A DNA stretch of 63,819 bases, filler included, from Aduncisulcus paluster (GCA_024181965.1; 8 parts of 8 records of this genome joined end to end with filler, not necessarily neighbours in it), one strand, 5' to 3'; counted from the whole stretch's first letter, positions 6,501 through 58,923 are shown. Notes: a model not told the origin generated them from the letters alone. A program made the numbers and translations.

Positions 6501-9500
6501 ACAGGTCAGTGTAGTGCAGGTCAGTTGGCTTCTTCTGATGATTCGAAGGTGATGATTGAAGAGCAACAAGAGAAAGAGAAAGATGACGAGGAAGAACAAG
6601 GCCAAGAAGAGTTTGAACAAGAAGAAGAGGAGGAATGTATCAATAATGAAAGACAGGTCCAGATCTTAGAGAAAGTTGCAGATGAAATGTATAGATCTGA
6701 TGTGAAGAGTAGCAAGAAAATTAGCATAATTACTACTAAAACTAGCCATGCTGAAAGATCTTCCTCTTCTCCTTCTTCCTCTTCTCCTTCTTCCTCTTCT
6801 CCTCCACAAGAAGATGAAGTTGGACAAGATAAGAAACCTGGTCGTAAATCTCTAAAAACTCTGGACTTTAAGAAGATTCCATTGATTGAAAATTCACGAT
6901 TCTTGTCCAAATTATTATCTCCAAGAATCATATCTCAAGGGAGAAAAAACAATACTGAAGGTATTTCGCCATTACTTATTGTACCTGGAGCCGGTGGAAG
7001 TATTCTCAGGTGTAAGGATAAATTGACAGGGAAAGATTTCGTTGTCTGGCCTCGTGTTATAGGGACTTGTGCTTATGTAGAACGCTTCATGTGGGGCAAA
7101 TACAATGCTGAAACTGAATTTTACGAACATTATCTATATCCTGAACGGTTTTCCATATATCCTGGTCGCGATAACCACGGGTTATATGGTGTAGAGAGTC
7201 TATTAACCGATATTCCCATCGTGGGGAATCGATTGGGAGGTCAATTCAGGTTTATGATTAATTTCTTTAAAAAGAAACGTGGTCTGGTACCTGGTGTAAC
7301 GATGTTTGGATTTCCATACGATTGGAGGCAGGACATGAGTGCTTCTTGGATGCTTGATGATTTACAAGAAGCTATCGAAAATGCTTATATCAAAAGCGGT
7401 GCAAGGAAAGTCGATATTGTGTGCCATTCCTTGGGTGGGCTTGTGCTCTTATATTACTATAAACTACGTCATGACCATTGCATGCAATTCGTGCGTTCTA
7501 TATCTTCAATTGGGACCCCGTATAGGGGTGCAGCAGGCATCGCTACAGGATCTCCCCTTCTTGGTTACTCGTTTAAATTGGGCTATCTCAATCAGAGAAC
7601 ATTCTCTATCTTGCAGGGGACTTGTCCTGCATACTTGCATCTTAGTCCCTGTGCATTTAGTGTTGTTAGGGGTGATATGGCAAGTGGAATGAGAATGCGA
7701 GTGAGAGAACGGAAGAAATACTCTGTGTCAGAGTGGATTGTTGAATGGAACAGACGTAAGACGGCAGAAATTGAGGAGATTCGGAAGAAACTATCCTCAC
7801 GCGATGGTTCTGATCGTGAATCTCTGGTAGCCCTTGACACTGAAGAATCTAATGAAAGTGGTTGTGCAAAAGGAGATGATGATACTGTGATAAATATCGA
7901 GTATAGTGCGGAATCGAGTCCCTTTGCCAACGTTGAGTTCTTTTTCCACCCTTCTCATGGTACTCTTGCTGTGTCACCATGTCGAGCTATCAGGGTGTCC
8001 CCCAATTGTACCACAAGAGATGGTTTTAAAGAGATTGCTGAAGCTAGATGGTCTACAGGATCTTCCTCAAATGACAACTCTGAATGGGTGACTCCTGGAA
8101 ATAGGGGTGAAAAAGAAGTGAGAGAAAGGATGGAATGGGTCAAGAAGCATCGTGAAGGCTTACTGTCTTCCAAACCCAAGGTTAACCCTACGATGGTCAG
8201 TTCCGATTGTACTGTCATTCTCAGTCAAGAATCAATAGTACAACAGTCAACCTCAAGGGAAGAAGAAGATGATTCTACAACAGACAATTCAACTCATACT
8301 TCCACTTCTTCTTCTTCCTTACAAGATGACCAAGACTATAGTCCATCGTTCAAACTTTTATCCGCTTTTATAAAACTCCCCGAAAAAGATGTTCTCCCTT
8401 TGCGAATCTGGAAGAAAACGTTGAAGCAATTCCAAACTGAAGACAAAGAAATCATGAGGAAAGAAATTGAAAGGATTGAGAAAGAAAGGAAAAGAATGGA
8501 AATTCTTGAGAAGAAGAAGGAAAGAAAACTCCACAAGATGCTCAAAACCTTTAAAAGTGATGTTTTACAGGTGCTTCCTCTCTCTTCTGCCATTCTTCGC
8601 GGAGATAAGAATGATAAAAAGCAAAAGGAAGAAGAGATAGAGCTTAAGGGAGATGATCAAATGAAGGATGGTTGTGATGTTGAAAAGGAAGAAAAGATCG
8701 AAGGCGAGGAACAACAAAAGATTATTCCTCATCTCATTCCTTCTCAATCGCCTATTTTGGGATCAGAATCTCCTATCATTCGTGAGAAAGAACCTCCATC
8801 TCTTGTTGGTGTTGAAACTCTGGATTCTTCTAAAAATAGAACCAAAGTTTCTCAAACTCAACCAATGCCACAACAGTCCAAACAACAAGATGTTGCTGTT
8901 CCTGATGCTACCCACACTCCTATTCCTTCGTTTTCTTCCATTTCTCAGCATATTACACCATTCTCCAGTGAATTCCCAATGTCACCTCTTCTACTGGAGA
9001 CAAGGAAATGGTATCATTCAGCGTTTATCTCTACAAATGGTCTAGATGAAGAGTACGTCACGAATGAAGAAATTCACTCCATTACAAAAGATCTTCTTGA
9101 ATCAGACAAATCCCTCCATGTCGATGGTGTTAACGTGTGGAAATATATCCAAGATACCATTGAAGAACGCAAGAAAACGGTATCAGACAAGGATATGAAA
9201 CGTAAATTCCTTAATGAAGTTCGGTTTGGTAGACAAAAACATACTGTTCCCGTCACATCTTTGAGTTCTGACATCCTTGATCCTCAAGATCTAATTGAAT
9301 CTATCGTTTCTGACGACCCTTTGTCAAAAAGTGCGAAAGAAATGGGTCAGTTAGTCAACCAAAGAGAAGGAGAATGGTGGAAAACTGGGGGATTTCATTC
9401 CGCCACATTTACTGCAGCCTCTTCTGTGGCTTGTGTCAGTGAGGTCCAATCAATATTAAAAAAGGAAGATGAAAAAGAAGGAGATGGTATCCATGCTCCA

Positions 9501-10580
9501 AAAATAGACAATGAGAAAGAGAGTGAGCTTGAACATTTTGAATGTGGTTCTGATCTCTGTGATGGTTGTGATGCCATTTCTCCTTCATCCCTTTGTAAAG
9601 AACCCATTCATAGTGATTCCACAATTGTTGTTGACTCTTCCTGTTCTCAAGTATCTCACTTGAAACCAGCAAAGAATCTCACTTCATGCCACATTGATGA
9701 TTCTGTTCGCACTGATTCTGCTCGCACTGATTCTGCTCGCACTGATCTCATGGTTGGAGGAACTGATCACCATCAACTCGATCACCATCAACAATGTCAA
9801 TCGATCACACCCTCAGTCGTGCCGTTTGGAGACACTGATTTGTTACACATGTATGACTTTGCTCGTGAATCTATGGATTATGCTCCACACCCGAATATTA
9901 AATTCGATGAGAATTGTTACCAACGTTACTGCGAACGAGCCTCCATCCCCATCCCGCCTGTTCCTGCCGATTTTTCATACAATGTCTTCTATGGACACTC
10001 AAAACCTACTGCGTGGGACTCTGTGTCAGGTGAAAGTGTTGAAGAAATGGGTGGTGATTGTGACTGCATCGGCTGCCAATGGGTTCGAGAGAGTGAACGT
10101 GGTCGTCATTTCCATTCATGTTCCTCTTCCTCTTCCTCCTCCTCTTCTTCCTCTTCTTCCTTACAACAGCAGAGAGATGTTCCCCTTGTTCCTAAAACAC
10201 ATCCTCTTACTTCACATCTTCTTCACCATCTTGTGAATAGACCATTGTCCTATACTTTCGTTCCCGGAGATGGAACGATCCCGATGTTACATGCGTTACC
10301 CCCTTTCAAGCCTTCGTCTCTTGTCGCAATAGCCAATACATCTCACTTTGGTCTTATGCGAAGTCTCTCTGTATGTGAAGGAATCTTACAAGTGATGGAA
10401 GAAAGGGATGAAATCGATCGGCAAAACTCGAGCACTCCACTATCTCAGAGGAATGATGGAGGAATTATTGGGTCAGGCGAAGTCAGTAGCGGAGAATCAA
10501 CTCCTAGGGTATTTGGAGGTGGTTTGCCTGGCGTAAAAAGTATTATCCAACGAATTCTGGGCGAATCTAGCGTAGAATAA
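3573..10580 (+). CDS. Giant protein with two LCAT/phospholipase A-like alpha/beta-hydrolase domains and long low-complexity inserts, 2335 aa
   Basis: Domain 1: PIILIPGYLES, FSHDWR, ISHGSGG, CPFYGG, GDGII. Domain 2: LLIVPGAGGS, FPYDWRQ, CHSLGG, GTPYRGA, GDGTIP, SHFGL. Confidence 0.85.
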   Translation: MPYLTSGKKLGGNGQENPIILIPGYLESTLVHEDSFGKISTIYPKFYGAESSVKGFLLDHSIPHSSVKGLVDEENGNIDSVSISRFFGSSKWSFIFSPLIKKLKAEGYIPGGNLFVFSHDWRLHDLDELNRAFYRLVVFVKSICKQSVTLISHGSGGIFVKQFLACYPKLYCCKSSSHSSQYLFQEPFISDWIAASCPFYGGSMAALSTIIFPYLHRKGIAGLSDRFTSLSSQTEALLALQSPAFLSMLPLSLLDQMKTLAPRVIMADQASFGKHKHTLDDIEGKEPSDAFKSFVVPLNVTISTLAINSYAETNCPEMGPMSFPIASVTMGESSKNPSKLPSMLSWFRSSQSHHNRHTHKQKSAMSTAPTNSHDGQAMREPDDRTSSVIDSISSTFPSDIEEYGLPEIEVSDSSVYSFRSPHSDCVASKHVKNVDEIDLGADKGTLGQQRNEEIPSSSSLSKVMSAPVSSKLSCETTTPASDDPRFKREFHSHDIKSSPECQYHDVRFTTHPEHCKSNELTFPLFDILQRCSFDLCGLDSSSTCSLATSSSSSTMDSPHSWAEHVHFLLSVLTAPMPRCRGNGSTDESSSSSPSSAHHSTIISSSMRSGDYDSTKQGHGAIVHGSSNPNYTEQSAQSAQSVPSSTPSITPLSISTLKGEKKVEEVEHGEVEIEKEVYEEYEEEEEEEEEEEEEEEEEESHHSLNTGTLGIHVLGIHVIGGTLMPTPWHTTIHTDKEKEREQMDAATHDVHHVYSDRKDAGDILKDIDIEEEKGLLDNSTFQQKDKKEVDTGRIDDGREKDVLYSNILDAVTSMCLGDTDDSSKITNPVSTPIVPKISSSRVTLTSIFGDGIIPDFSSLALSCDVTSRLSLPHTDFHSTLSCPVSIEFIMETLSQKEKERAKKAIVGSEPKLFKPIPSQTKRIRTKTRRRRRTRKVTQTVVNEMSKEEVIPNSPSSLASTQELGQYSTAQCSAAQYGTGQCSAGQLASSDDSKVMIEEQQEKEKDDEEEQGQEEFEQEEEEECINNERQVQILEKVADEMYRSDVKSSKKISIITTKTSHAERSSSSPSSSSPSSSSPPQEDEVGQDKKPGRKSLKTLDFKKIPLIENSRFLSKLLSPRIISQGRKNNTEGISPLLIVPGAGGSILRCKDKLTGKDFVVWPRVIGTCAYVERFMWGKYNAETEFYEHYLYPERFSIYPGRDNHGLYGVESLLTDIPIVGNRLGGQFRFMINFFKKKRGLVPGVTMFGFPYDWRQDMSASWMLDDLQEAIENAYIKSGARKVDIVCHSLGGLVLLYYYKLRHDHCMQFVRSISSIGTPYRGAAGIATGSPLLGYSFKLGYLNQRTFSILQGTCPAYLHLSPCAFSVVRGDMASGMRMRVRERKKYSVSEWIVEWNRRKTAEIEEIRKKLSSRDGSDRESLVALDTEESNESGCAKGDDDTVINIEYSAESSPFANVEFFFHPSHGTLAVSPCRAIRVSPNCTTRDGFKEIAEARWSTGSSSNDNSEWVTPGNRGEKEVRERMEWVKKHREGLLSSKPKVNPTMVSSDCTVILSQESIVQQSTSREEEDDSTTDNSTHTSTSSSSLQDDQDYSPSFKLLSAFIKLPEKDVLPLRIWKKTLKQFQTEDKEIMRKEIERIEKERKRMEILEKKKERKLHKMLKTFKSDVLQVLPLSSAILRGDKNDKKQKEEEIELKGDDQMKDGCDVEKEEKIEGEEQQKIIPHLIPSQSPILGSESPIIREKEPPSLVGVETLDSSKNRTKVSQTQPMPQQSKQQDVAVPDATHTPIPSFSSISQHITPFSSEFPMSPLLLETRKWYHSAFISTNGLDEEYVTNEEIHSITKDLLESDKSLHVDGVNVWKYIQDTIEERKKTVSDKDMKRKFLNEVRFGRQKHTVPVTSLSSDILDPQDLIESIVSDDPLSKSAKEMGQLVNQREGEWWKTGGFHSATFTAASSVACVSEVQSILKKEDEKEGDGIHAPKIDNEKESELEHFECGSDLCDGCDAISPSSLCKEPIHSDSTIVVDSSCSQVSHLKPAKNLTSCHIDDSVRTDSARTDSARTDLMVGGTDHHQLDHHQQCQSITPSVVPFGDTDLLHMYDFARESMDYAPHPNIKFDENCYQRYCERASIPIPPVPADFSYNVFYGHSKPTAWDSVSGESVEEMGGDCDCIGCQWVRESERGRHFHSCSSSSSSSSSSSSSLQQQRDVPLVPKTHPLTSHLLHHLVNRPLSYTFVPGDGTIPMLHALPPFKPSSLVAIANTSHFGLMRSLSVCEGILQVMEERDEIDRQNSSTPLSQRNDGGIIGSGEVSSGESTPRVFGGGLPGVKSIIQRILGESSVE

Positions 10581-11298
10581 TCTATTTATAGTTTGGTTTA
10601 TCAATCTATCATGTGAAGATAATTTGTATCTTCTTCTTTTTTTTTTTTTTTTTGTTTTGTTTTGTATTGTTTTGTTTTGTTTTTTCATTTACTTTTCTAT
10701 GTTATGGTATTTATTATATTTCGCTTTTTTCTTCATCTTATTTTATTTTTTGAATAAGAATGTTAGTTTTGTTATTTAGTTATTTTAATCGATCGGATTT
10801 TACTTTATAATTCCTGGTTGTATCAGATCTTTTTCTATTTTTCTTGATTTCTATTATACTATTTCTATTATTGGATTTTCTATAATTTGCAATTCTCTAT
10901 TTTTAGACATGTAGAGAATTTTATTTTTCTTCATCCAATACTGATACGTCGCCTATTTGTCCCTAAAATCGATGTCACCAACGAGATAATTGCCGTGTTC
11001 ATCACATTTTAATGATCCTCTCGGAATTGTTGGCCCTTCTAAATTTCAATGGCTAAGTTGGAGAAATCTCTGACTTATGGCTAACGAATATATTGAATAA
11101 ATTACTTTTAAATTCAATTTTACTTTTGACTACTGGTTAGCAGCCTGCTGAGACTCAGCAGTGCTGAGCTTATGCTAGACAACTTGCAAACATGAAATTA
11201 ATAATTAATGACAGTGATTGGTTGGTCATTACCCTATCAATTGCGTTTGTACAAACAGTTAAAAATTAAATTCATTAAAATATTATGAATTAATCATG

Positions 11299-17721: not shown

Positions 17722-17958
17722 TGTAATACGTTTTGTTGACAAAGCAAGGTTGACGAAAAAGGAGACCGAAGTCGAATAAAATATTGGTGACCCTGAAAAG
17801 GGATATAACAGCATATTATTTCAGAATTATGTGGAATTTTTCTTATTATTTTGTTTTTTATTTTCCAATAAATTCTAGAAATAGAGCCATTTCATCTGAG
17901 ATCATCTCGGCATCTGGAACAGCGTCAACTTTAGAAATAATGTGAAGATACATTTCAT

Positions 17959-30943: not shown

Positions 30944-31286
30944 TGATTCGTGGCAAAACATGATTTTTGAATTACTCACTGCTACTAAAGACAAATCAAC
31001 CAATGAAAGGATAAAATTTGATATTTATTGAATATTAATATTTATTTCTATTAACATTGCTTATGAATTATACTTTATAGCCATGTAGAAGCCAATCATT
31101 CCCATTTAATAGAATTTCATATTCATAATAATATCAATAATTTAAAAAGCTTTTATGGAGTCTGATTCTCAATTTTCAGAACAATGATTATGTTATTCTT
31201 ATTCCACCAAGCTGAAGGAATGGAATCCAATTTTGTGATCGATTATAAACATATATACATCAATCATCACCATCTTTCAATATACT

Positions 31287-33278
31287 ATGAGTAATGCCTT
31301 TGAAAGATATGCTTATGTATATGCGAAAGAGCTTGGAATCAGTGAAACTTCATGCAAGACAATTACTAATGCTTGTGGATTCTTATCAATTATCTCAAGC
31401 AAAATAGACCAACTCAAAGCACTTCCGTATTCAAAAGATAAAGGTGTATGCTTTCATATTTCAAAAACTCTTCGCATTTGTAATATCATTATTATTCCCT
31501 GTATAAAGATGAATGACGTGCATGTTCAATGCTGTCAATATATTATCAACCCCTCTTTGTTTTTACTGATCACAATATTTTCTCAAGAAATTAAATCATC
31601 ATCCATCGATTATGTTTTATGTCAAGAACTGGAAAGTTGTCTTATCAGTGAAGTTGAACTCGCTATCTCTCTTCTTCAATGCCTAACAAAGATATATTCT
31701 GATCCTTGCTTTCTTCAAACTTGGCAATTGGTTATTAAGGCCTGTATCCTTTTGGCCCGGGATACTGTGTCGCATCCTCTCTCTCCATCGGCATTTTATC
31801 CCCAATCGCGTACAGACCAATCGATTTCTCTTCCTTCTTGTTCCTCATACCCCTTCTCAATTAATTGTGTCCGTGTGTGTCAATCTGTCTTCCATGCACT
31901 GATATGTTCGTTCCATTCCCTTGTCTTGGGTCCTCACAGGGGCCCTGACACAACATACGCATACCATCAACACGCCCTTCACCCCCACGAAGACAAGGTT
32001 GATAATAGCGAGCTAGATAGAGATAGAGAACGACTGATGGACCCCCCACAACTGGGTTCTTCCACCACCTCCATGCCTTCACGTGTGGAGAGCTCGAGTG
32101 AGTGTGAGGAAGATAGTGAGAGTGGGGTGATCGAAGACGATGAGAATGAGGAAGAAGATGGAAAAACGGTGTCCTCAGCACCACCTTCATGTGGCACAGT
32201 TCCTTGTTCAGTCCCTCCACGATCTCACTGGCTCTCATCAGTTTTTGTTTATCTTGTATGCATCCAGAGTCTTCTGCCATCCATAGATATCCGTTCTATT
32301 ACTTCAGAGCTCCAGCGTAAAGAATTAACACACGCCCTTCACGTGGCCGGACAGCGGCTTGTCGCAAAAGTTGTTGTCTTGTCCTCCTCTTCCAACGATT
32401 CAATGGATTCAATGCTGGAACAAGGGCATTTACCCTCAGATGAGGAGTATGAACAGCGTGCCAGCATGAAATCCAAGCTTAGAATGCAATCAGAGAAGAT
32501 ATTATCGTTGTGTTTATCGATTCTTATTGCAATTGACGCCAATAATGAGACAATTGCAATGGTGGTTCAATGTGTCCGAGGCTGTATGGCACAAGAAGAA
32601 GAGTGGAAGGCAAAACCAACAATGAGCATCACACCTTACATTAAAACAACATTGTTTTCGAATCATGTTTCTCAATTATCATCTATTTTTAGCAAAAAAC
32701 TTTCACTTTCTCAATTATTTGTTCTTATTGATACTCCCATTGTCACCAGTTTGATCTGTTATGGTTCGATTGTACAATACCCATCTTATTCGCTATTCCT
32801 CCATTCTATTTGCTCTCTTTCTTTTTCATTATCCTCTCTCTCTTCTCTTTACTCCTTCCGACTCCCATCTTCCTCCTCTTCCTCGTCACTGGCCAGCCTC
32901 CTCCTTCGTGATGTCATGCAGATTGCCGGAATAAGGATAAAACGATGTGTGATTTCGGATTCGTACGTCTCTCTTTGTGCTGGAGGCTTCTTATCTCCTT
33001 CTTTTATCTCCGCCAAGGAGGAAGAGGAAAGAGAGAAGAGACGAGGGAAGGAAGAGGAAAGAGAAGATGTTCTCGATGCTGCTCGTTTAACGACACCGGA
33101 TTCATCAGGTGGATGTGCCTTGAGCTGGTATCCAATTACAACTTTATATAACCCATCGGTTTCTTCTCTTACGCATGCTGCAGCCATACTAAGACTTGGA
33201 AATACTTTGCCCGTGTGCGATAAGGTTGTTATTGAGGCACACACTCTATTATCAAAAACTCGAAGTCGGTTTGAGTAA
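31287..33278 (+). CDS. Hypothetical protein, 663 aa
   Basis: Long ORF with helical and low-complexity segments; no family recognised. Confidence 0.6.
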   Translation: MSNAFERYAYVYAKELGISETSCKTITNACGFLSIISSKIDQLKALPYSKDKGVCFHISKTLRICNIIIIPCIKMNDVHVQCCQYIINPSLFLLITIFSQEIKSSSIDYVLCQELESCLISEVELAISLLQCLTKIYSDPCFLQTWQLVIKACILLARDTVSHPLSPSAFYPQSRTDQSISLPSCSSYPFSINCVRVCQSVFHALICSFHSLVLGPHRGPDTTYAYHQHALHPHEDKVDNSELDRDRERLMDPPQLGSSTTSMPSRVESSSECEEDSESGVIEDDENEEEDGKTVSSAPPSCGTVPCSVPPRSHWLSSVFVYLVCIQSLLPSIDIRSITSELQRKELTHALHVAGQRLVAKVVVLSSSSNDSMDSMLEQGHLPSDEEYEQRASMKSKLRMQSEKILSLCLSILIAIDANNETIAMVVQCVRGCMAQEEEWKAKPTMSITPYIKTTLFSNHVSQLSSIFSKKLSLSQLFVLIDTPIVTSLICYGSIVQYPSYSLFLHSICSLSFSLSSLSSLYSFRLPSSSSSSSLASLLLRDVMQIAGIRIKRCVISDSYVSLCAGGFLSPSFISAKEEEEREKRRGKEEEREDVLDAARLTTPDSSGGCALSWYPITTLYNPSVSSLTHAAAILRLGNTLPVCDKVVIEAHTLLSKTRSRFE

Positions 33279-36209: not shown

Positions 36210-36280
36210 ATTGATGTTATTGATGTTATTGATGTTATTGATGTTATTGATGTTATTGATGTTATTGATGTTATTGATGT
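36210..36280. repeat. 9-bp minisatellite (ATTGATGTT) x about 8
   Basis: Directly visible perfect tandem array. Confidence 0.95.
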
Positions 36281-39367: not shown

Positions 39368-40715
39368 TCCAATGATTATGATATTGTCTGCAAAAGATAT
39401 GAGACTATTGTTTCCTTGTATGGCTTCACAGAACAATGATATTCTTTCTTTCGCCCAGATCTGAGAGAGAGATAATACCGAGAAAGGATAGTACATTTCA
39501 TATGCTCAGGATTTGAATAATTCAGAATGAAAATGAAAATGAACGCTTTCCATCCATTTCTCACCATTATTAGGCCCCTTTGAATAAAGATAGAAGTTGA
39601 TGTTCTAAAAATAGATTTTCTAAAAATAGAAATACAAAGTGTGATTTCTTCTAAATTCATGATTATAACTCGTTATTTCCATGATTCGTGCACAATTTAG
39701 CGAATGTTCACAAGTTGACGAGGTAATACTTTTCGATTTCAGTCCTGACTTGAGATAGAGTTTCAACGGTAAGTTTGAACGCATAAACAAGGTTTTGGAT
39801 CGATATTGGATATGGTATGACCAAATATCCGTGTAACTTGAGAATATCCAAACATGTGTTCTAAAAATAGAATGTCTAAAAATAGAATAAGGACAATATT
39901 TTTGAATGTTCAAGAAAGGAATTTCGACATATATATCTTTCAGGATTGAGAATGTGTGGGTTTCTAACCACCAACTAACTGAAGAGATCACGAAAGAATG
40001 ATTGGAAATGAAAGTTTCATTCGACATTTTCCTTTCTTCTTCATATTCCATTCCTTCCAACCATTTCAATGATTGCATACAAACTTTCTCGGGTGAAATT
40101 TGTGAACCATTTATTCATCAGATTTATTCAACTAGAATGCTCTTTCTTCTTCAATCCAGAAAACCATCCATCAAGAAGATCCTTAACATTATCATACACT
40201 TCAACAGCATGTAATGGATCACAACATAAGTTGGAGAAGAATAATAAAACATGTTCATATGATATCACTTGAGAGTGTTGACTGGTTACAATTTACTAAA
40301 TAAACGAAAAGGCTTGTGTTCTATAATTAGAACATCCTGAGAAGGTGACAGAGAGGGTGATTGAAAATCGAAAATACATCAATTCTCGATAACGCTCAGT
40401 TACTGAGCTCAGTATCTTTGTATATCTTCAACCAATCTCTGACATATGGTTTGATGAGGGTATGATATTATGTTCAAATTTTGAGTTCAAATGGAACATG
40501 ACATGATCAAATAAAGATACATTGTGTGAAATTAATAAAACATTGTTTTATTTCACCAAGCTTTCTCAAAAATATCGACCTCGTTAAAAAGAATAATAAA
40601 TAAATAAAATAATATGTCATTAAAATGTATATTGGAAAAAAACTATCAGAATGGATAGAAACAGATTAGTAATAGGAATATTACATATTCTACGTACCTT
40701 ATGAAGCCAAGATAA

Positions 40716-41143
40716 TTGGAACAAATGAAATTAAAAACAAAACAATTAGAAGACATTTTAATGAGAAAAAGACGTTCCAAAACAGTTTATGCCATTCTTC
40801 ATGGTTCGCTTGGTGTGAACAAAAAAGACATCCTTGAAATATTATCTTTTACAACATCTTCAGAGCTAAAAATTATAAACAATTCTAATATACAATGTTT
40901 ATTTTGTAAAAGAGAGTTTTTAAACTCTTATTCGTCATTAATTGACCACATTATCTCACGTTCTCATATTCAGTGCCTTAAAGAGAATTTAAAACCACAA
41001 AAACAATTAATACTTAAATTTTTTGATTATATTATTGAAAAGGCTACAGTTACAGAGACATCCCTATTTCGAATTGCCAAAATAATAGATATTGAAATGA
41101 TGGAGATTATTCAAAAACTCCCAAGGCCCATTCATATCCCAAC
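40716..41143 (+). CDS. Hypothetical protein fragment with a C2H2-like zinc finger, 3'-truncated
   Basis: CLFCKREFLNSYSSLIDHIISRSH fits CxxC...H...H; start uncertain. Confidence 0.4.
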
Positions 41144-50671: not shown

Positions 50672-51321
50672 NNNNNNNNNNNNNNNNNNNNNNNNNNNNN
50701 NNNNNNNNNNNNNNNTTAATTAATTAANNNNNNNNNNNNNNNNNNNNNNNNNNNNNNNNNNNNNNNNNNNNTCAGTGGAAATATTTCTCGTTTGCATCGT
50801 TTGATGCCCAATTATATGCATATGTCATGTCTTAAGCATGATTCGCTGCATTCATGCTTTAAACCAAGAGATCTGCCAGCAACATTGAACGGTATCATCT
50901 CGTGTGCTTATTTATTCCTCTTTTATAAACGTTTAAATGGAGTATCCCTTCCTTTGTCGATTTGTACACACAAGATGCTGAACAGAAAGAATGTGAGTTC
51001 AAAACCATTAACCTTGATGGCCCTCAGCTATACAATACAGTGTACACCCAATACAATCTCCTAACAAGAGCGTGATTTCTGTATTACCCCCCTCTTTATT
51101 GAACTCAGCAAATTGGATGATTAATTGATCGTTGCCACCGAGATTATATTTTTAAAAAGACTTTAATAATCAATTGAGTATTTAAATGTCGTTTTTTATG
51201 AATGATTTCGTCCTCCTTCGGACCTTGTGAAGATTCCTCAGAATCCTGAGGCAAAAATGGATCCAATAATAGAACGTGACATTTGTTTGTTTTGCATCCA
51301 TACTCAACCAAGAAAACGGCA

Positions 51322-52896
51322 ATGAAGGATCCAAAGTGTAATTTGATGGCACTCATATTCGTGTGTGCCATAATGATTTGCTTGTCTCAAGTGACTGCAA
51401 CATATGTAAAGAATGACTCCAATATTAATAATGATGAAGTTGAACAATTTTGTGATGTCAAAATAGGCTATCTCAGTGATAATTACGGTAATCCTGTCCC
51501 AAAAGTTCTTGAGTCATCTATTAATAGTTTTGCTGATACAAGTTGGGGATCTCAAAATCTATTTATTCTGGGAATTTTTTTTTTATATGTTGCCTCTCAA
51601 ATTCTTTTGAACTTTTTAGTCTATGCTTTTGGTTGTTTTCTGATTGCTATTTATGATTTTGATGTTGCTACATGTTTTCGTACGTATTGCAAAATTGTTG
51701 CGGCTTTTATGCCTAAGGGAGAAGAATCTTCATATGATACATCAAGAGAGAGTTCTTCAAACTCTTATATTCCAAGAGAAAGTTCTTCAAACTCTTATAT
51801 TCCAAGAGAAAGTTCTTCAAACTCTTATATTCCAAGTAGTAATGATGACACTTGTGCAACCTACTTCTTAATTGTCTCAATTTGCTTCATTATATTCGTT
51901 GTTGTCGTATGGGCGTGGGAGGAAATATTAGATATTGTGCGTAAAATAGTTGCGTTTTTTGTGGCCTTCGTATTATTCATCGTATTATATTTTTTCAAAG
52001 ATTGGATTAAAGTTATGATAAATTATTCGAAGAAATACCTTCTACACAAGGTTATGTTCGCTTTAAATCACAAAGAAAAGTGGATAATATGGATATGTTC
52101 ATTGTTACCTCTTCAGAGTATTGGGTTAATTCTATTATACCGGCATCTTTCTATTTTTCAACTCGTTTTTAGTTATCTGATTTTGGTAATATCGCTAGGT
52201 TTTTGTTGTAAAGAGATTTTATCAAATAATTATGATGTAACTGATCTAAGATGTTTTGCCTCATCAGTTCACATTGGGTTTGTATTTTTACTGAATTTGT
52301 TTGTGGTACATAATGGAATCGTCACAAGTCTATTATTTTTTTGGGTTCCATTTGCATTATGTTCAATTTTCCCTCTCTGTTTGCGTTGGATAGAGAATGA
52401 ATCAAGAAATGTTGCAAATAATATGGCCCATATAGTTTTTTCTATTGCCACAGCTTATACGGGTTTGGTTCTTCTCTACCTTGACTATCATTTCTCAATC
52501 AAGGTATTTCATATCTTTGGTCTCTTCCAGATTATTGTTTCTGGAATTTCCTATGTAGCATATCGTTTTGATATTGTTCCTGCTTTCGACTTCTTCGGTT
52601 ACATTCCTCTTGATATGATTCCACTGATTTTGTTTGGAATATATTATATTCCAATTTCTGGATGGATGGTATTGGTGGTTACAGGAATAATTATATGTTT
52701 TGCAATTGGTGTTAATCCTCTCAAAAATATTATAAAGATGATATCAAAATGGTTTCAAAGGAAGAAAACTCCGTTAAAAAAATCGTCATCTCAGTCTTAC
52801 ACGCCTTCTTCAATTTCATTTTATTCATATTCATATTCACAGTATATTCCTAAGCCGAAAAAGAGTTGTTTTTCTTTTTTTGCCTGTTGTTCATGA
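51322..52896 (+). CDS. Signal-peptide multi-pass membrane protein, paralog 1
   Basis: MKDPKCNLMALIFVCAIMICLSQVTA signal, roughly 11-13 hydrophobic segments, C-terminal FFACCS. Start placed at the first ATG. Confidence 0.75.
   Translation: MKDPKCNLMALIFVCAIMICLSQVTATYVKNDSNINNDEVEQFCDVKIGYLSDNYGNPVPKVLESSINSFADTSWGSQNLFILGIFFLYVASQILLNFLVYAFGCFLIAIYDFDVATCFRTYCKIVAAFMPKGEESSYDTSRESSSNSYIPRESSSNSYIPRESSSNSYIPSSNDDTCATYFLIVSICFIIFVVVVWAWEEILDIVRKIVAFFVAFVLFIVLYFFKDWIKVMINYSKKYLLHKVMFALNHKEKWIIWICSLLPLQSIGLILLYRHLSIFQLVFSYLILVISLGFCCKEILSNNYDVTDLRCFASSVHIGFVFLLNLFVVHNGIVTSLLFFWVPFALCSIFPLCLRWIENESRNVANNMAHIVFSIATAYTGLVLLYLDYHFSIKVFHIFGLFQIIVSGISYVAYRFDIVPAFDFFGYIPLDMIPLILFGIYYIPISGWMVLVVTGIIICFAIGVNPLKNIIKMISKWFQRKKTPLKKSSSQSYTPSSISFYSYSYSQYIPKPKKSCFSFFACCS
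51742..51836 (+). repeat. 30-bp coding tandem repeat x3 (RESSSNSYIP)
   Basis: Unit caagagaaagttcttcaaactcttatattc repeated three times. Confidence 0.9.
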
Positions 52897-53127
52897 AGAT
52901 AATTGAATTGTTTACACAGTTTCAGCCCTGTTAACACAAAATAAACATCTGTATTCTAAAAATAGAAAATCTAAAAATAGAATCCAAATTCCAAAATTGC
53001 ACTCTATGACTCATAGAGCTCATAGTATGAGCCCATTCCCGAGATTTATCGTGAAAAAGGTCTATAAATACTATTATGTGTGACTTGATTATATTTATTA
53101 CAAAATTTATTTAAGTTAATTTCAATT

Positions 53128-54892
53128 TCAATATTTTTTTAATGAACAACAACGAAACTGTTTGAAAATCCCTAATATTTTAGTCAGTATCGAATTCTTT
53201 CTCGGCTTTTGCAATGTAATTTGAGTAACAGAAGTATCAGAAATATATATAGCTTGAATTGAAATTGAGGGTGCTGATGATTGGCGTGACGGAAAAGAAT
53301 TAGAAGCTGAATTGGACCCAATATTTGTTTCAAGCGAATCCCAGAGGAAACAGGCCCCGACAACTCCAACACTCGACAATAATATCCACCGAATAAAAGG
53401 GACATGATACATTCCGAAGAAAATGAGTGGAATCAGATCAGGAGGGATATAATCCAGGAGAATACGGAAGAATTTGTTGTGGAAACTAACAAAAATATCA
53501 AAACAATGTATAAAAAAGGAAATTCCAGAAATAATAATTTGGAAAATGCCAAAACTATGAAATGTATCTATTGAGAAATAAGAGTCAAGGTAGAGAAGAA
53601 CAATGCCCGGATAAGCTGAGATTACAAAACAAAATATTTGAACATAAATGTTTGCTTCCACATCATCCTCTTTCTCAAGAATATAGTGGGGTAAGAGGAA
53701 ATACAAAATTAGAGGAATCCAAAACAACATGACTGATATGGAGAAGTTATATGTCAAATCCATGTCAAAATCCACAAATAGATTCAATATAAACAATATT
53801 CCGATATAAAATGAGCATAAAGAACTCGTTCTCATACCTTTAGAGCAATAGAAGAGACAAATAACAAGAAATCACAAAACAAGACTCCGAGTCCAATATA
53901 ATATAGAATTGAATTAAATTTATGACTACTCATGAGCAATACCGAACCTGAAAGACCAAAACAACAAGTGGCAATTATTCCTGGTAGATAACGCCGTCCT
54001 TTCCGAAAATATTTCTTCCTCTTGTCTCCTGCAATTTTCTTCACATTATCACAAAAATATTCAAGTGTACATATCACCCAAAGACCCAAGGAACAAATCA
54101 CTAAAACTATTTTGAAAAAAAAGGGATCGATGGACGAAAAAAGACGAAGGAATACAATGACATGTCCAATGATAACNNNNNNNNNNNNNNNNNNNNACCT
54201 GAAAGACCAAAACAACAAGTGGCAATTATTCCTGGTAGATAACGCCGTCCTTTCCGAAAATATTTCTTCCTCTTGTCTCCTGCAATTTTCTTCACATTAT
54301 CACAAAAATATTCAAGTGTACATATCACCCAAAGACCCAAGGAACAAATCACTAAAACTATTTTGAAAAAAAAGGGATCGATGGACGAAAAAAGACGAAG
54401 GAATACAATGACATGTCCAATGATAACAGAAGTAGAGAGTGAATCCCAGAATGAGATATCACCCGAAAACTCAAAAGACAAAATATCGATCCAAAAACGA
54501 AAATAACCAGCGAATTGATGCGTCAAAAATTCCAAAATATTTTTATATGACAAGAAACATGAAATAAAAAGGATATAAAAAATTTCAAAAATGGTAACAA
54601 AAGCCATAAATATTAATGGGGTAATCAGTAATAGAGCCAATATTAGAATAAAACCAACAAAAATGGCCCCATCCTCACTGAAAGTACAATCAAATGAAGA
54701 AGAATCAAATTTTGGAATTAAATTCCCATCCTCAGAAGTAAAATAGCAAATATCAGAGAAATTTCTTTTTCTTGAAACATTTATTTCCCCTCCAGGATAA
54801 TGTTTCACATATGTTGCAGTCACTTGAGACAAGCAAATCATTATGGCACACACGAATATGAGTGCCATCAAATTACACTTTGGATCCTTCAT
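53128..54892 (-). CDS. Signal-peptide multi-pass membrane protein, paralog 2; gap duplication plus a frameshift near 53870 (possible pseudogene)
   Basis: Same first ~29 aa as paralog 1; later homology AYPGIVLLYLDSYFSIDTFHSFGIFQIIISGIS vs AYTGLVLLYLDYHFSIKVFHIFGLFQIIVSGIS; ends RCCSLKKY. Confidence 0.65.
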
Positions 54893-56122
54893 TGCCGTTT
54901 TCTTGGTTGAGTATGGATGCAAAACAAACAAATGTCACGTTCTATTATTGGATCCATTTTTGCCTCAGGATTCTGAGGAATCTTCACAAGGTCCGAAGGA
55001 GGACGAAATCATTCATAAAAAACGACATTTAAATACTCAATTGATTATTAAAGTCTTTTTAAAAATATAATCTCGGTGGCAACGATCAATTAATCATCCA
55101 ATTTGCTGAGTTCAATAAAGAGGGGGGTAATACAGAAATCACGCTCTTGTTAGGAGATTGTATTGGGTGTACACTGTATTGTATAGCTGAGGGCCATCAA
55201 GGTTAATGGTTTTGAACTCACATTCTTTCTGTTCAGCATCTTGTGTGTACAAATCGACAAAGGAAGGGATACTCCATTTAAACGTTTATAAAAGAGGAAT
55301 AAATAAGCACACGAGATGATACCGTTCAATGTTGCTGGCAGATCTCTTGGTTTAAAGCATGAATGCAGCGAATCATGCTTAAGACATGACATATGCATAT
55401 AATTGGGCATCAAACGATGCAAACGAGAAATATTTCCACTGANNNNNNNNNNNNNNNNNNNNNNNNNNNNNNNNNNNNNNNNNNNNTTAATTAATTAANN
55501 NNNNNNNNNNNNNNNNNNNNNNNNNNNNNNNNNNNNNNNNNNCTATCTCCAAGTTAGAACATGATTTTATCAACTGAAAAATCGAAAATGATTATTGTAT
55601 AAATTATTATGATCCCGATTAACGATTCCATGCACCAGCTTCACTTCATTGGTCAAAGCCATCTTCCAAAGTCCAATTTGAGGCAAATATTAGCGACAAG
55701 ATCCTGTCATGTTCTTTGAAACATTCATTAGGCATGCCATGAAACAAAGAACTGCGATGAAAATAATCTTTATCTTGCTGGAATGCACCTTTGTTATGAT
55801 GAGATCGTAACCCACTTTTAGATGCTCTCTATTCCACGATTATGCTTGTCACAATATTTTCTAATAATATATTCGATGATATATATCCTTTTAATTTATA
55901 TTCTATATTCTTCAACGGTATTGGTTCTCTAAAACCGATTATCGCTGAAATTTATTCCATACAATTCACATTCGATTATATATCAACATATCTACATATC
56001 AATTCATCACTTGAAAGTGAAACAACAAGGAAAAAATGTGGTGAAGTGAAGTGAGATGATAAGCGAAGACTCGAGAAGCTGAAGAGATAACTCTGTTTTA
56101 TTTCCATGTCCAATCATCTTGG

Positions 56123-58923
56123 TCAGCTATAGTAGGCATCTAACACCTGGGCCATATGCACCAATGAACGAGATAAATGTGTCAATCCAGCATTTTGACA
56201 TATGATAGAATTACGAGCAGCACATAATGCACTAGCTCTAGCCAGCGACTGCAGAGCTACAATGTCACATTTATATATCCTTCCAATACTCCACAGTAAA
56301 GAATCTATTGGCTTGCTATCATATTTAACTGTTTCTGCCATTACCATGCAAGATGAACCAGATGCCAGACCTCGTCGTCTGCATTTCCATTGCTGGACTT
56401 GAGCTTGAAAACCATCGACGAGATCAGCAACAAGAAGAGCATTGAAGGCCACCAAGAGTGCATATTCTTTCTTTGGGTCTATTCTTCCCGAAGAAAAAGA
56501 TCTCAAGGCCATATATTCTTCTTCAACGCCCATTCGTCTGAGCATCGTTCTTTCTGCCTTTGTGCACTCAATTTCCATTCTCTCTTCAAGAACACGCACT
56601 CTATCGCTGCTGAGAACAGTGACCATCGATGGACAAAGAGTCTGAGAAGTTGAAGAAGAAGAAGAAGGAAGAAAAGAAGAGGAACTGGAAGAAACAACGA
56701 GGGATTGTTGTTTAATAAGCTTGGGAATACAAAAGAACGCCAAGTGTTTGGATGAGGTCATTAATATCCCTTCTTCACAGGCTTCACATCTGATATAGAG
56801 AAGAGTGGATGAAATAAGGAGAGGAGGAAGAGGAATAATGTGGAACTGAGTGAAAGATTTCGGTGAGAAACTCAAAACGTAGTGATAAGAAGCTATTTTT
56901 AGTTTGGAGTCAGTTGATTCTTCTTTGTGACTTAATGTTTTGTTTGACTTTCTTTCTTCAGGAAGGCGAAAGGAGAGGTGTTTCTTGGAATCTAAATATG
57001 GAACATGAAGTAGTTCGGTTCTAAAAATAATATGTTCGGAAATAAGTCTAAAAATAGATTCATGAACAAGGAACCGAATTATCTCATCCGATTCTATTTT
57101 TAGAAAAATAAAAAGATATTTAGAGCACATTTCAACAAATTCTTCTTCCGAAAATATCAATTGTGATGCAAAACAGGATAAAAACAAAGAACAAAGATAA
57201 CGAATAAGCTTATCAAAGATTTCAGAAAACTCATTGGCTATATCTTTTCTTTTCAATCGTATTAAAAGATTGTGATGTTCCTTACAATTATCAATATTTT
57301 TAGAGGTTTCTTCTATCATCTCTTCTGCTTCCTTATTTCTTGTTCTCAAGACACCCTTTTCTTTAATTCCTTTTAACATTTTCTCGGCCAATTCCTCTTT
57401 TCTTTCCTCTTTTCCTTCCTCTTCCATTGTTAGTTTATCTGGCGATTCGACGATGGATTGCAAATGCTCAAACAATGGCTCCCAAGCTGATGCAAAGGAT
57501 AATCTAATTATAGAAGGTTGAGAAACAAACTCATAGAATGATTTAAACAGAGGTGACAGTTGTGGCATTAAAGAGGAAGAGGAAGAAGAGGAAGAAGAGG
57601 AAGAAGAAGTTGCAGATGTGTTTCTTTCACTTGAAAACAGTGGATAAAATGGATTTTGCCAAGGAATCTGATTAACACTAGAAGAAAAGAGAGAAGAGGA
57701 AGAAGAAGAGGAGGAGGAGGAAGAGGGAAGAAGAAGAAGAGGAGGAGGAAGAGGAAGTTGTAATATGTGAGATCTGAGGCCTTGAAAAAGATTGAAATGC
57801 ACCTGAAGAATTTAATTGACCATTTCTTGAGAAAGAAGAAGGATGTTGAGGTAATACCTGAGCACTTCCAATCGTAACAGAATCGTCTATTTTTGGAAAC
57901 ACTGAAGGTGAAACAAAAATATTTTTAGGTGTAGAAATCGGAGTCGAAGGAAACATTATTCCAGGTTTCGGTGTGACAGGAATTGGTGTGAAAGGTGAAT
58001 CTACAAAAGGATTTCCAGCTGTTTTGTGAGGAATCATTGAAGGAGTCATTAAAGCCGGAATAATAGATGTGGATAGACCTATATTTGGACTAGGAGCACC
58101 AAATATCCTATTTTTAGAAATCCTATTTTTAGAAATCGGTGTGGAAGTAGTCGCCGAATACAAAACCGTTGTTGCAGAATCCTCAGGTTTTTCCTTCTTT
58201 GTGTCATGTCTAATTATCGATTTACCATTATTCCTCTTTCCTTTCATCCGGCTTTTCTTTGGAATAACCATTCCACCGATACACAGAATAACATCTCCAT
58301 CATCCTTGCAAGATGAACACATTTGACAGAACTGATACCGGCTTAAAACCATTCCACCGTCTTTCCTACTACTCGTCTTTCCAGCTAAAGTCTTTCCAGC
58401 TATAGTCTTTCCAGCTATAGTCTTTCCACAAGTACGAGAAGTGGAAGAGGAGGAGGAAGAGGAGGAGGAAGAGGAGGAGGAAGAGGAGGAGGATGAGGAG
58501 GAGGAAGAGGAGGAGGATGAAGCAGAACGAGACTGTATGGATATTGCTTTATGAGGAGTATTTGGTGAAGAAGAACACTGATCAGATGGGAATACTGATG
58601 ATAAAACCTTTGATGAAGGAGAGACTGTATTTTGTTCAACAGATCCATAACCTCCGATGCACACTCTATTGGCTTTAAAAGAAGATGTCGTTAGAGATGT
58701 TGTTGCAACGACAAGACGGACTTTCCCAGAATGCAACTCGTCCTCAATAAAAGCTCTATTTGACAAGGATAATGAAGAGTTGTGATAGGCAATCGAAAGA
58801 GAGAGAAGAATAGAGAGAGGAGAAGGAAGAAGAGGAGAAAGGCGTTGAATACGATCACATTGGTCACATTTATGGGGGTGGGGCTTCTTAACAAATCTAT
58901 TTTTAGATTGAAATTGAGAAACA
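56123..58923 (-). CDS. Degenerate HELQ/Pol-theta-like Ski2-type helicase, C-terminal part, 5'-truncated, with a +1 indel near 57725
   Basis: IAYHNSSLSLSNRAFIEDELHSGKVRLVVATTSL...ANRVCI (motifs IV-V), YQFCQM (motif VI remnant) and ratchet-like ALLVADL...LQSLARASALCAARNSIICQNAGL. One extra C in the poly-Ser tract splits the two ORFs. Confidence 0.65.

What the first reader, a model, noticed from the sequence alone, without database searches (positions are those of the whole stretch)
8829..58907. Over-represented quasi-palindromic 12-mer TCTAAAAATAGA, often as 15-bp-period pairs and inside coding sequence
Seen: exact copies at 8829, 39604, 39619, 39860, 39875, 52955, 52970 and 57047 (+), and 10896, 57093 and 58896 (-). 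One-mismatch copies lie at 6105, 9497, 32682, 58107 and 58122. Four pairs have exactly 15-bp periodicity (39604/39619, 39860/39875, 52955/52970, 58107/58122). In CDSs it is read in different frames and strands (SKNR, SKNRISKNRI, SIFR, LKIE), so selection is on DNA rather than protein. A rough hand estimate at ~65% AT gives about 0.05 expected copies versus 11 seen, on four different contigs. Inference: a genome-wide iterated DNA signal, conceptually like cyanobacterial HIP1 or uptake sequences. It could be a chromatin or replication protein site, or a product of biased repair that also makes 15-bp duplications.
Basis: partly seen in the sequence, partly recalled or inferred. Interest (0 to 1): 0.72.

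Follow-up and report, generated by a model that had tools for sequence, protein, structure and literature searches.

The report
Over-represented MEF2-type DNA word, flagellate genome
A 12-letter DNA word that equals the best known docking site of MEF2-type MADS-box proteins occurs hundreds of times too often in these contigs of a free-living relative of Giardia, inside genes as well as between them and often as exact pairs 15 letters apart, so it is most likely a protein docking site kept at the DNA level, with its role still open.

Summary
TCTAAAAATAGA occurs 11 times exactly, against 0.02-0.10 expected. Its 10-bp core CTAAAAATAG occurs 15 times against 0.1-0.4. Four same-strand pairs lie exactly 15 bp apart, against 0.002 expected. 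Flanks are unrelated, so this is not one repeat family. The excess persists in coding DNA under codon-aware shuffles: 7 seen against 0.92 and 0.15.

The core is the highest-affinity 10-mer found for MEF2B by SELEX-seq (PMC7470950). MEF2-type MADS genes are the only MADS type reported in fornicates: Spironucleus 1, Kipferlia 2, Giardia 0 (PMC10484287, Supp. Table 1).

My best reading is a docking word for a MEF2-type MADS dimer, with pairs and clusters as multi-dimer sites. It does not behave like an ordinary promoter site. No exact copy lies within 200 nt upstream of 22 start codons. Two of four convergent spacers carry it, and 7 of 15 cores are coding. Exact copies outnumber one-mismatch variants. 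Copies are also clustered (p about 1e-4), unlike HIP1 or uptake sequences.

No MADS gene could be sought in this organism, and no reads could be laid. Earlier notes of this scan hold nothing on this word.

The parts
8829..8840 (+). Exact copy inside the 2341-codon open frame 3555-10577 (LCAT domain gene). Sense strand, read as S-K-N-R.
10896..10907 (-). Exact copy in a convergent spacer. It lies 316 nt past the stop of the + gene and 392 nt past the stop of the - gene. It overlaps a palindrome with 9-bp arms.
39604..39630 (+). Head-to-tail pair of exact copies, 15-bp period, spacer TTT. It lies 237 nt past the stop of gene 38273-39364 and about 1.1 kb upstream of the ATG of a C2H2 gene at 40725.
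39860..39886 (+). Second head-to-tail pair of exact copies, spacer ATG, 256 bp from the first pair. The 164-codon frame that overlaps it has no coding signal.
40320..40331 (.). TCTATAATTAGA: the same half-sites with a different A/T centre. It is the fifth site in the same 1.35-kb spacer and has the same tgtgt left flank as the pair at 39860.
52955..52981 (+). Head-to-tail pair of exact copies, spacer AAA, in a 237-bp convergent spacer between two paralogous genes. It lies 59 nt and 147 nt past their stops.
57047..57104 (.). Inverted pair of exact copies (57047 +, 57093 -), 46 bp start to start, inside the 562-codon frame 56126-57811 (minus strand). Read as S-I-F-R and L-K-I-E.
   Evidence: (I23)
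58107..58133 (-). Perfect 15-bp tandem duplication of TCTAAAAATAGG (one mismatch), in frame, read as ISKNRISKNRI. It lies in a low-complexity coding region that also holds an unrelated 15-bp repeat array at 58359-58428.
58896..58907 (-). Exact copy 130 nt upstream of the listed start of ORF 57678-58766 (minus strand) and 17 nt from the contig end.
6105..6116 (-). TCCAAAAATAGA variant, antisense in the LCAT gene (read as SIFG).
9497..9508 (+). TCCAAAAATAGA variant, sense in the LCAT gene (read as PKID).
57886..57897 (-). TCCAAAAATAGA variant, sense in frame 57681-58922 (read as FPKID).
17874..17885 (+). TCTAGAAATAGA variant, 60 nt upstream of the ATG of the DNase II gene (minus strand, ATG at 17814). 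It is the only copy with at most one mismatch that lies close to a start codon.
32682..32693 (-). GCTAAAAATAGA: full 10-bp core, antisense in frame 31239-33275.
56892..56903 (-). ACTAAAAATAGC: full 10-bp core, sense in frame 56126-57811 (read as LKI).
57503..57514 (.). TCTAATTATAGA: the same half-sites with a different A/T centre, inside frame 56126-57811.

Best explanation
TCTAAAAATAGA is a docking word for a sequence-specific dimeric DNA-binding protein, and it is kept at the DNA level. The most likely reader is a MEF2-type MADS-domain dimer. Each 12-mer (half-sites TCTA and TAGA around an A-tract) would take one dimer. Head-to-tail pairs at 15 bp would place two dimers side by side. Local clusters would act as multi-dimer platforms: five sites in the 1.35-kb spacer at 39.6-40.3 kb, and eight or nine sites and near-sites across contig 7.

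Copies can persist inside genes because two of the three frames on either strand read the word without a stop.

Shown: the excess, the exactness, the 15-bp phasing, the spread over frames and strands, the unrelated flanks, and the identity of the core with the optimal MEF2 site.

Inferred: The positions point to gene-end, insulating or chromatin-organising work more than to classic promoter activation.
For: 1. The core CTAAAAATAG fits the MEF2 consensus YTAW4TAR and is the 10-mer of highest relative affinity in MEF2B SELEX-seq. The best site there holds the longest possible A-tract (PMC7470950, passages read).

2. The whole CTA-W4-TAG family is in excess: 20 sites against about 0.75 expected. 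The other A/T centres give 5 sites against 0.63, and the half-sites are strict. This is the pattern expected of a MADS reader: fixed half-sites and a tolerant centre.

3. The commonest variant is T to C at the second core base (CCAAAAATAG, 3 seen against 0.3 expected). The same paper reports this substitution as tolerated.

4. Flanks: T at -1 in 13 of 15 copies and A at +1 in 12 of 15. This agrees with the K...M flanks I recall for the RSRF/MEF2 consensus. That consensus is recalled, not taken from a call.

5. Fornicates have MEF2-type and no SRF-type MADS genes: Spironucleus salmonicida 1, Kipferlia bialata 2 (found by HMM scan), Giardia 0 (PMC10484287, Supp. Table 1 rows). Earlier notes name the organism as Aduncisulcus paluster. 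[quoted passage not shown]

6. Constraint falls on the word and not on its surroundings. In the three non-coding pairs, 0 of 36 compared word positions differ, against 5 of 9 spacer positions. Flanks are unrelated. The coding excess survives codon-aware nulls.

7. A single-strand fold is weak, about -1.5 to -2 kcal/mol per word. The duplex sequence, not a hairpin, is therefore the likely signal.
Against: 1. No MADS gene was shown in this organism. No genome is held, none of 70 window ORFs scanned has a MADS domain, and earlier notes have none.

2. The positions are not promoter-like. None of the 11 exact copies lies within 200 nt upstream of the first ATG of 22 ORFs. By my reading of the ORF map, 0 of 4 divergent spacers carry a copy and 2 of 4 convergent spacers do. 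7 of 15 cores lie in long ORFs.

3. The site population is much sharper than the MEF2 consensus. The Y and R alternatives are not in excess: TTAAAAATAG 0 against 0.30, CTAAAAATAA 1 against 0.28. The AAAA centre takes 15 of 20 sites. Exact copies (11) outnumber one-mismatch copies (7), although 36 times more one-mismatch words exist. A published MADS target list shows many different centres (table in PMC8745200).

4. An excess of 100-fold or more of a perfect 10- to 12-mer, in coding DNA too, is not usual for transcription-factor sites (my own knowledge).

5. The in-frame pair at 58107 lies in a gene that also repeats an unrelated 15-bp unit 4.6 times. That one pair may be plain slippage.
Confidence: 0.4

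Rival explanations
1. The word is a docking site for another, still unknown sequence-specific protein with a general role. Possible roles are a roadblock to transcription at gene ends, an insulator, a nucleosome organiser or a replication-origin factor. The match to MEF2 sites would then be a coincidence of A-tract palindromes.
For: Intergenic copies lie mostly past stop codons: 59, 237 and 316 nt downstream. Two of 4 convergent spacers carry the word and 0 of 4 divergent spacers do (my reading). The population is sharper than MEF2 degeneracy. In six related phage loci from metagenomes the same word at the same 15-bp phase sits inside a replication-initiator-like gene, as iterons do. So other protein families can read such an array.
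Against: There is no candidate reader. The spacer counts are tiny. Copies inside long ORFs would block or disturb the very genes that hold them. The exact match of core, centre preference and tolerated variant to MEF2 data would be left unexplained.
Confidence: 0.25
2. The word is spread or kept by a DNA-level process and not by a cellular function. It could be remains or binding repeats of a mobile element, or the product of a site-specific nuclease or transposase followed by repair, with 15-bp duplications as fill-in products.
For: Exact copies outnumber variants, as for words spread by copying or drive. Copies cluster in direct and inverted orientation. Copies collect in convergent spacers, where earlier notes of this scan place repair-scar palindromes, and two such odd palindromes lie right beside the pair at 52955. 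A Ty1/copia-type element from a metagenome carries 4 exact copies just 3' of its pol gene. The pair at 58107 is a perfect 15-bp duplication.
Against: Nothing beyond the 12-mer is shared between sites. The window has no inverted terminal repeats, no target duplications and no transposase, integrase or reverse-transcriptase gene. A test for a solo LTR around the 39.6-kb cluster gave only chance-level matches. In three pairs the spacers differ while the words are intact, which simple duplication does not predict. A specific protein that recognises the word is still needed.
Confidence: 0.2
3. The word is an evenly dispersed genome-wide word of the HIP1, uptake-sequence or Chi kind.
For: The excess over every null is very large. 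The word occurs on both strands and in coding and non-coding DNA. Exact copies dominate over variants.
Against: Copies are strongly clustered by contig (p about 1e-4), and three contigs totalling 29 kb have none. Half of the copies form phased pairs. The organism is a eukaryote, for which no DNA-uptake or Chi machinery is known (my own knowledge). Only 63 kb could be examined.
Confidence: 0.06
4. The word is an RNA-level signal, such as an intron 3' end with fused branch point (as in Giardia and Trichomonas) or a polyadenylation or termination signal.
For: The word ends in TAG or AG on both strands and holds CTAA, which looks like a branch point. GT often lies just upstream. Some copies follow stop codons.
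Against: Real introns of the kinase gene in this window run GTATGT...ATATGTAG over about 160 nt and lack the word. The word occurs in both orientations relative to genes and in frame inside ORFs of 400 to 2300 codons. At 8829, the candidate segments from a GT to the word's AG are 29, 31 and 35 nt long by my reading, so removing any of them would break the frame. Only 2 of the 17 readable 3' flanks (of 20 printed) contain the word in the 160 nt after the stop, and those two share one spacer.
Confidence: 0.03
5. The word is a sequencing or assembly artefact.
For: The published assembly of the organism named by earlier notes is short-read only, with N50 4.6 kb (PMC9933649, whole text). One copy lies 17 nt from a contig end. 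Contig 6 has suspicious perfect inverted ends.
Against: Copies sit in frame in long ORFs with unique flanks on four contigs. The word is not part of the Illumina adapter sequences as I recall them (recalled, not tested).
Confidence: 0.02

Closest known systems
MEF2 / RSRF binding site, YTA(A/T)4TAR. The same site type is used by yeast Rlm1/Smp1 and plant MIKC* MADS factors (those two are recalled, not from a call).
   Same: The 10-bp core is identical to the optimal MEF2B site. Half-sites are strict and the centre is A/T only, with the A-tract preferred. C is tolerated at the second base. MEF2-type genes exist in fornicates.
   Different: The excess is 100-fold or more. Exact copies dominate. 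The Y and R alternatives are not used. Copies lie in coding DNA and past gene ends, not in proximal promoters. Head-to-tail pairs at 15 bp occur. The reader protein has not been shown in this organism.
HIP1 of cyanobacteria and DNA uptake sequences (USS/DUS) of Pasteurellaceae and Neisseriaceae
   Same: A short word far in excess of any composition null, on both strands and in several reading frames, with exact copies dominating.
   Different: Those words are spread rather evenly through bacterial genomes (my own knowledge). Here copies are clustered and paired, and the organism is a eukaryote.
Iterons of phage and plasmid replication initiators (lambda O / ori type)
   Same: Head-to-tail repeats of a short word at a fixed phase. 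Six related metagenomic phage loci carry this very word at 15-bp phase inside a replication-initiator-like gene.
   Different: The window has pairs, not arrays of four or more, and no initiator gene next to them. The sites are dispersed over many loci of a nuclear genome.
General regulatory factor sites of yeast (Reb1, Abf1, Rap1, Mcm1) that position nucleosomes, stop polymerase as roadblocks or flank replication origins (recalled)
   Same: Abundant, high-information sites whose work is architectural. Mcm1 is itself a MADS protein. The position at gene ends fits roadblock termination.
   Different: As I recall, those yeast sites lie between genes and are rare inside them. Nothing here shows termination or origin activity.
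Subterminal 12-bp TnpA-binding repeats of En/Spm (CACTA) transposons (recalled)
   Same: A 12-bp word in several direct and inverted copies within a few hundred bp.
   Different: No element ends, no target duplication and no transposase were found.

Membership tests
MEF2-type MADS-box binding site | 10-bp core fitting YTA(A/T)4TAR | tested here: met
   There are 15 copies of CTAAAAATAG, which is the top-affinity MEF2B 10-mer.
   Other A/T centres are in excess (5 against 0.63) and CCAAAAATAG gives 3 against 0.3. TTAAAAATAG gives 0 against 0.30 and CTAAAAATAA gives 1 against 0.28, and AAAA takes 15 of 20 sites.
MEF2-type MADS-box binding site | A MEF2-type MADS protein is encoded by the organism | not testable with these tools
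   No genome is held. None of 70 window ORFs scanned has a MADS domain. The literature reports the gene in two other fornicates, Spironucleus and Kipferlia, and not in Giardia.
MEF2-type MADS-box binding site | Sites lie in promoters or enhancers of target genes | tested here: not met
   0 of 11 exact copies lie within 200 nt upstream of 22 ATGs. 7 of 15 cores are in long ORFs. Three intergenic loci lie 59-316 nt past stop codons. One cluster lies 0.4-1.1 kb upstream of a C2H2 gene.
MEF2-type MADS-box binding site | Binding of the protein to the site | not testable with these tools
   This needs EMSA, DAP-seq or ChIP.
HIP1 / USS / DUS-type iterated genome word | Large excess over Markov and codon-aware nulls, on both strands and in several frames | tested here: met
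HIP1 / USS / DUS-type iterated genome word | Roughly even dispersion through the genome | tested here: not met
   Counts per contig are 2, 0, 1, 4, 0, 2, 6, 0 against 3.7, 3.5, 0.9, 1.6, 2.2, 1.1, 0.8, 1.1 expected. The p value is 0.00003, or 0.00012 with pairs collapsed. Only 63 kb were examined.
Iterons of a replication initiator | Array of phased direct repeats at or inside an initiator gene or origin | tested here: not met
   The window has pairs only and no initiator-like gene. The feature is met in metagenomic phage loci L001, L008, L011, L018, L022 and L026.
Transposon terminal or subterminal repeats, or solo LTR | Shared element sequence beyond the word, inverted terminal repeats, target duplication, element genes | tested here: not met
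   Flanks are unrelated. No transposase, integrase or RT domain was found. The TG...CA plus target-duplication test gave chance-level matches.
Fused branch-point and 3' splice-site motif of metamonad introns | Lies at the 3' end of introns, on the sense strand only, and is removed from the mRNA | tested here: not met
   Real introns in the window end in ATATGTAG and lack the word. Copies lie in frame and on both strands. No RNA reads could be laid.

The most novel reading that the evidence does not exclude
A eukaryote with a true genome-wide DNA word. If the density seen here holds (one core per 4.2 kb), a 29-Mb genome would carry thousands of exact copies. The word would be kept at the DNA level inside and between genes. 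It would be read by a MEF2-type MADS protein that has been turned from a gene-specific activator into a general organiser of gene ends, chromatin or replication in a lineage known for reduced replication and transcription machinery.
Probability: 0.15. Interest if true: 0.8.

Novelty: new variant of a known kind. Interest (0 to 1): 0.55.

Why it matters
Almost nothing is known about gene control or chromosome organisation in free-living relatives of Giardia. A single 12-bp word, with an obvious candidate reader that is present in some fornicates and lost in Giardia, gives a direct experimental handle. One can express the MADS domain, test binding and map occupancy.

If the density seen here holds across the genome, it would be a rare eukaryotic case of a sequence word maintained even inside coding DNA. 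It would also offer a way to ask what MADS proteins did before they became developmental regulators.

If the word instead turns out to be spread by a mobile element or a nuclease, it would join the repair scars already noted in this genome as evidence of an unusually active DNA-breakage history.

Tried and rejected
**RNA and DNA reads.** One search listed two runs, X1 (DNA?) and X2 (RNA by guess only), and no RNA holder is on record. So nothing was laid, and there is no evidence either way on transcripts or on independent reads.

**Whole genome.** None is held.

**Intron 3' motif.** Rejected.

**General polyadenylation or terminator signal.** Rejected. Of 20 3' flanks printed, 17 are readable. 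Only 2 of those 17 contain the word in the 160 nt after the stop, and those two share the spacer at 52955. One more flank has a variant directly after the stop at 10581.

**Core promoter element.** Rejected.

**Hairpin or cruciform signal.** Weak, -2.4 to -3.8 kcal/mol for pairs.

**Repeat family.** Rejected.

**Solo LTR at 39.4-40.4 kb.** Only chance-level matches.

**Paralogue comparison of the 3' flanks of genes 740-1855 and 38273-39364.** Similarity fades about 170 nt past the stop, before the pair, so insertion and substitution cannot be told apart.

**Metagenome scan for the 27-bp pair.** It returned 26 loci in at least 14 unrelated groups: phage, giant virus, bacteria, a copia-type element and unknowns. 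None is related to the window beyond the word. This shows the pair is not unique to this organism but says little about it.

**Homologues of the motif-rich ORF 56126-57811.** None among proteins of 309-984 aa. The Atlas search gave only weak, unnamed hits of 0.78.

**Earlier notes of this scan.** Nothing on this word or on MADS in this genome.

**Literature.** A full-text search for CTAAAAATAG found 71 papers. The 25 listed are mostly MEF2/MADS or unrelated primers, and none concerns metamonads. Searches for MADS with Giardia, Trichomonas or Kipferlia gave no paper on cis-elements in fornicates.

Full report
**What the window is.** The 63,819 bases are eight contigs joined by N44-TTAATTAATTAA-N44, with further 20-N gaps. 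G+C is 32-43%. The ORFs are long and eukaryotic: LCAT, DNase II, oxysterol-binding protein, protein kinase, AAA ATPase, poly(A) polymerase, DEAD helicase and many orphans. Earlier notes of this scan name the genome as Aduncisulcus paluster, a free-living fornicate. I did not verify the name. The contig sizes and G+C fit the published draft, which I read in full (PMC9933649): 29.4 Mb, 25,863 contigs, N50 4.6 kb, 39.1% G+C, 11,743 introns, Illumina only. No whole genome is held for the window, so every count below refers to 62,979 non-N bases.

Dinucleotide shuffles give 0.02, and 0 of 100 shuffles reach 11.
- At up to 1 mismatch there are 18 copies against 1.41 expected. At up to 2 mismatches there are 46 against 16.8.
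- The 10-bp core CTAAAAATAG occurs 15 times.
- Markov models of order 0-5, also trained with the copies masked, expect 0.02-0.10 for the 12-mer and 0.10-0.40 for the core.
- Flanks of 150 bp around the 15 cores share nothing except where neighbouring sites overlap. This is not one repeat family.
- In 44.4 kb of long ORFs there are 7 cores. Synonymous codon shuffling gives 0.92 and codon-order shuffling gives 0.15, and 0 of 300 shuffles reach 7 in either case.
The third, an independent sequencing technology, could not be run.

**Anatomy of the word.**
- It has two 4-bp half-sites, TCTA and TAGA, around four A/T bases.
- Of the 20 CTA-W4-TAG sites in the window, 15 have the AAAA (or TTTT) centre.
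- The other centres are still in excess, 5 against 0.63 expected.
- Base -1 is T in 13 of 15 cores and base +1 is A in 12 of 15. Nothing further out is conserved.
- Among the 30 single-base variants of the core, only CCAAAAATAG stands out, with 3 against 0.3 expected.
- The mismatch spectrum is very sharp: 11 exact, 7 with one mismatch and 28 with two, against roughly 0.02, 1.4 and 15.4 expected.

**Where the copies lie.**
- Seven cores lie in long open frames, 5 in sense and 2 in antisense. They are read as SKNR, SIFR/SIFS or LKI. One frame on each strand is closed by TAA or TAG, and both open frames are used.
- The frames at 56126-57811 and 57681-58922 have the best codon score in the ORF frame, including the 230-nt stretch that holds three word-like copies.
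- The two short frames over the 39.6-kb cluster have no coding signal, so I count those copies as non-coding.
- Eight cores are non-coding. That gives 0.43 per kb, against 0.16 per kb in coding DNA (p = 0.046, or 0.20 with pairs collapsed).
- No exact copy lies within 200 nt upstream of the first ATG of 22 ORFs. One variant lies 60 nt upstream of the DNase II gene.
- Intergenic copies lie past stop codons: 59 and 147 nt (pair at 52955), 237 nt (pair at 39604), and 316 and 392 nt (10896).
- By my reading of the ORF map, 2 of 4 convergent spacers and 0 of 4 divergent spacers hold a copy. These numbers are small.
- The 1.35-kb spacer between gene 38273-39364 and a C2H2 gene (ATG at 40725) holds five sites.
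- Copies are clustered. Counts per contig are 2, 0, 1, 4, 0, 2, 6, 0 (p = 0.00003, or 0.00012 with pairs collapsed).

**The pairs.** Four same-strand pairs are exactly 15 bp apart, against 0.002 expected.
- In the three non-coding pairs the 12-mers are identical, while 5 of the 9 spacer positions differ from the three bases that follow the second copy. If these pairs began as duplications, only the word has been kept. If they did not, the 15-bp phase itself is selected.
- The fourth pair (58107/58122) is a perfect in-frame 15-bp duplication. It lies in a low-complexity gene that also repeats an unrelated 15-bp unit 4.6 times, so it may be plain slippage.
- An inverted pair (57047/57093) lies inside an ORF (I23).

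**What it is not.**
- It is not an intron end.
- It is not a general 3'-end signal.
- It is not a core promoter element.
- It is not a stable hairpin.
- It is not a solo LTR.
- The window holds no transposase, integrase, reverse transcriptase or MADS domain.

**What it matches.**
- MEF2 proteins bind YTAW4TAR. In MEF2B SELEX-seq the 10-mer of highest affinity was CTAAAAATAG, the best site held the longest A-tract, and C at the second position was tolerated (PMC7470950, passages).
- A full-text search shows the same 10-mer in use as the MEF2/MADS site in schistosomes, flies, mammals and rice (listing; table of PMC8745200).
- A survey of MADS genes reports MEF2-type and no SRF-type genes in fornicates: Spironucleus salmonicida 1, Kipferlia bialata 2 (found by HMM scan), Giardia 0. 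Parabasalids have none (PMC10484287, text passages; Supp. Table 1 rows).
- So a MEF2-type gene is on record in two other fornicates, one of them free-living. Whether this organism kept it could not be tested.

**Against the MADS reading.**
- The reader protein has not been shown.
- The positions are not promoter-like.
- Y and R alternatives of the consensus are not in excess.
- The AAAA centre and exact copies dominate far more than in ordinary target sets, as the many centres in the rice table show.
- An excess of 100-fold or more that extends into coding DNA is unusual for a transcription-factor site.

These points keep open an unknown reader with an architectural role, or a copying or drive process.

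**Related sequences elsewhere.** A scan of metagenome contigs for the 27-bp pair gave 26 loci in at least 14 unrelated groups.
- One group is phage. Six loci carry about four 15-bp units inside a replication-initiator-like gene, like iterons.
- Others are a giant-virus contig (L021, capsid gene), bacterial contigs (L013, L017) and a Ty1/copia-type element with 4 exact copies just 3' of pol (L016).
- None is related to the window beyond the word, and no RNA family was found in them.

This shows that phased arrays of the word can serve as protein-binding repeats in other systems. It does not bear on the organism itself.

**Mechanism and odds.**
- I put 0.4 on a MEF2-type MADS dimer reading the word, with pairs and clusters as multi-dimer platforms and a role nearer to gene-end or chromatin organisation than to promoter activation.
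- The rivals are: another reader with a general role (0.25), a mobile-element or nuclease-and-repair process (0.2), an evenly dispersed HIP1/USS-like word (0.06), an RNA-level signal (0.03) and an artefact (0.02).

**Novelty and score.** The site type is known. Its behaviour here is not what is described for MADS sites: density, exactness, presence in coding DNA, position at gene ends and 15-bp pairs. Nothing on cis-elements of free-living fornicates turned up in my searches. I class it as a new variant of a known kind, with interest 0.55. Earlier notes of this scan hold nothing on this word.

Noticed in passing
window 50772-55442 (contig 6): The contig ends are perfect inverted copies of each other over 639 nt (50772-51410 and 54804-55442, 100% complementary). 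Inner arms are 73% alike (52414-52590 and 53479-53655), and two convergent paralogous genes are 43% identical as proteins. This is either a real palindromic duplication with recently homogenised ends or a fold-back assembly artefact.
   Followed up: partly
window 53002-53031: Two abutting odd perfect palindromes, CTCTATGA-C-TCATAGAG (17 nt) and CTCATA-G-TATGAG (13 nt), lie 20 nt from the pair at 52955 in the convergent spacer. They belong to the class earlier notes of this scan call repair scars behind gene ends.
   Followed up: no
window 58359-58428: A 15-bp unit (GTCTTTCCAGCTATA on +) is repeated 4.6 times in frame, read as GKTIAGKTIAGKTLAGKT on the minus strand. It lies in the same orphan gene that holds the ISKNRISKNRI pair. 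Five-codon tandem duplication seems common in this gene.
   Followed up: no
window 45506-45660 and 46190-46300 (minus strand): Two nearly identical introns of about 160 nt (GTATGTTCATTATATTTT...GATATGTAG) separate the repeated exons of the kinase gene. An earlier first-reader note describes them as cloned introns.
   Followed up: partly
window 740-1855 (-) and 38273-39364 (+): These are paralogous orphan genes on different contigs. Their 5' flanks are alike, and their 3' flanks are alike for about 170 nt. The downstream region of the first holds an internal direct duplication of about 150 nt.
   Followed up: partly
window 36210-36280: A perfect 9-bp tandem repeat (ATTGATGTT, 7.9 copies) lies in a stretch of strong G-over-C skew (36-38 kb) with few ORFs.
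   Followed up: no
L004, L005, L010, L014, L015 (metagenome loci): A family of related contigs (85-90% identity over about 1.4 kb, 36-50% G+C) carries the word as a 44-bp perfect palindrome around a G+C-rich hairpin, with one more head-to-tail copy at 15 bp. No Pfam or Rfam match was found nearby, and the organism is unknown.
   Followed up: partly
L016:3001-3160 (metagenome locus): A Ty1/copia-type retroelement (rve, RVT_2) of an unknown eukaryote has four exact copies and several variants of the word within 160 bp just downstream of pol. That is where the 3' LTR is expected, so this would be a cluster of MEF2-type sites in an LTR.
   Followed up: no
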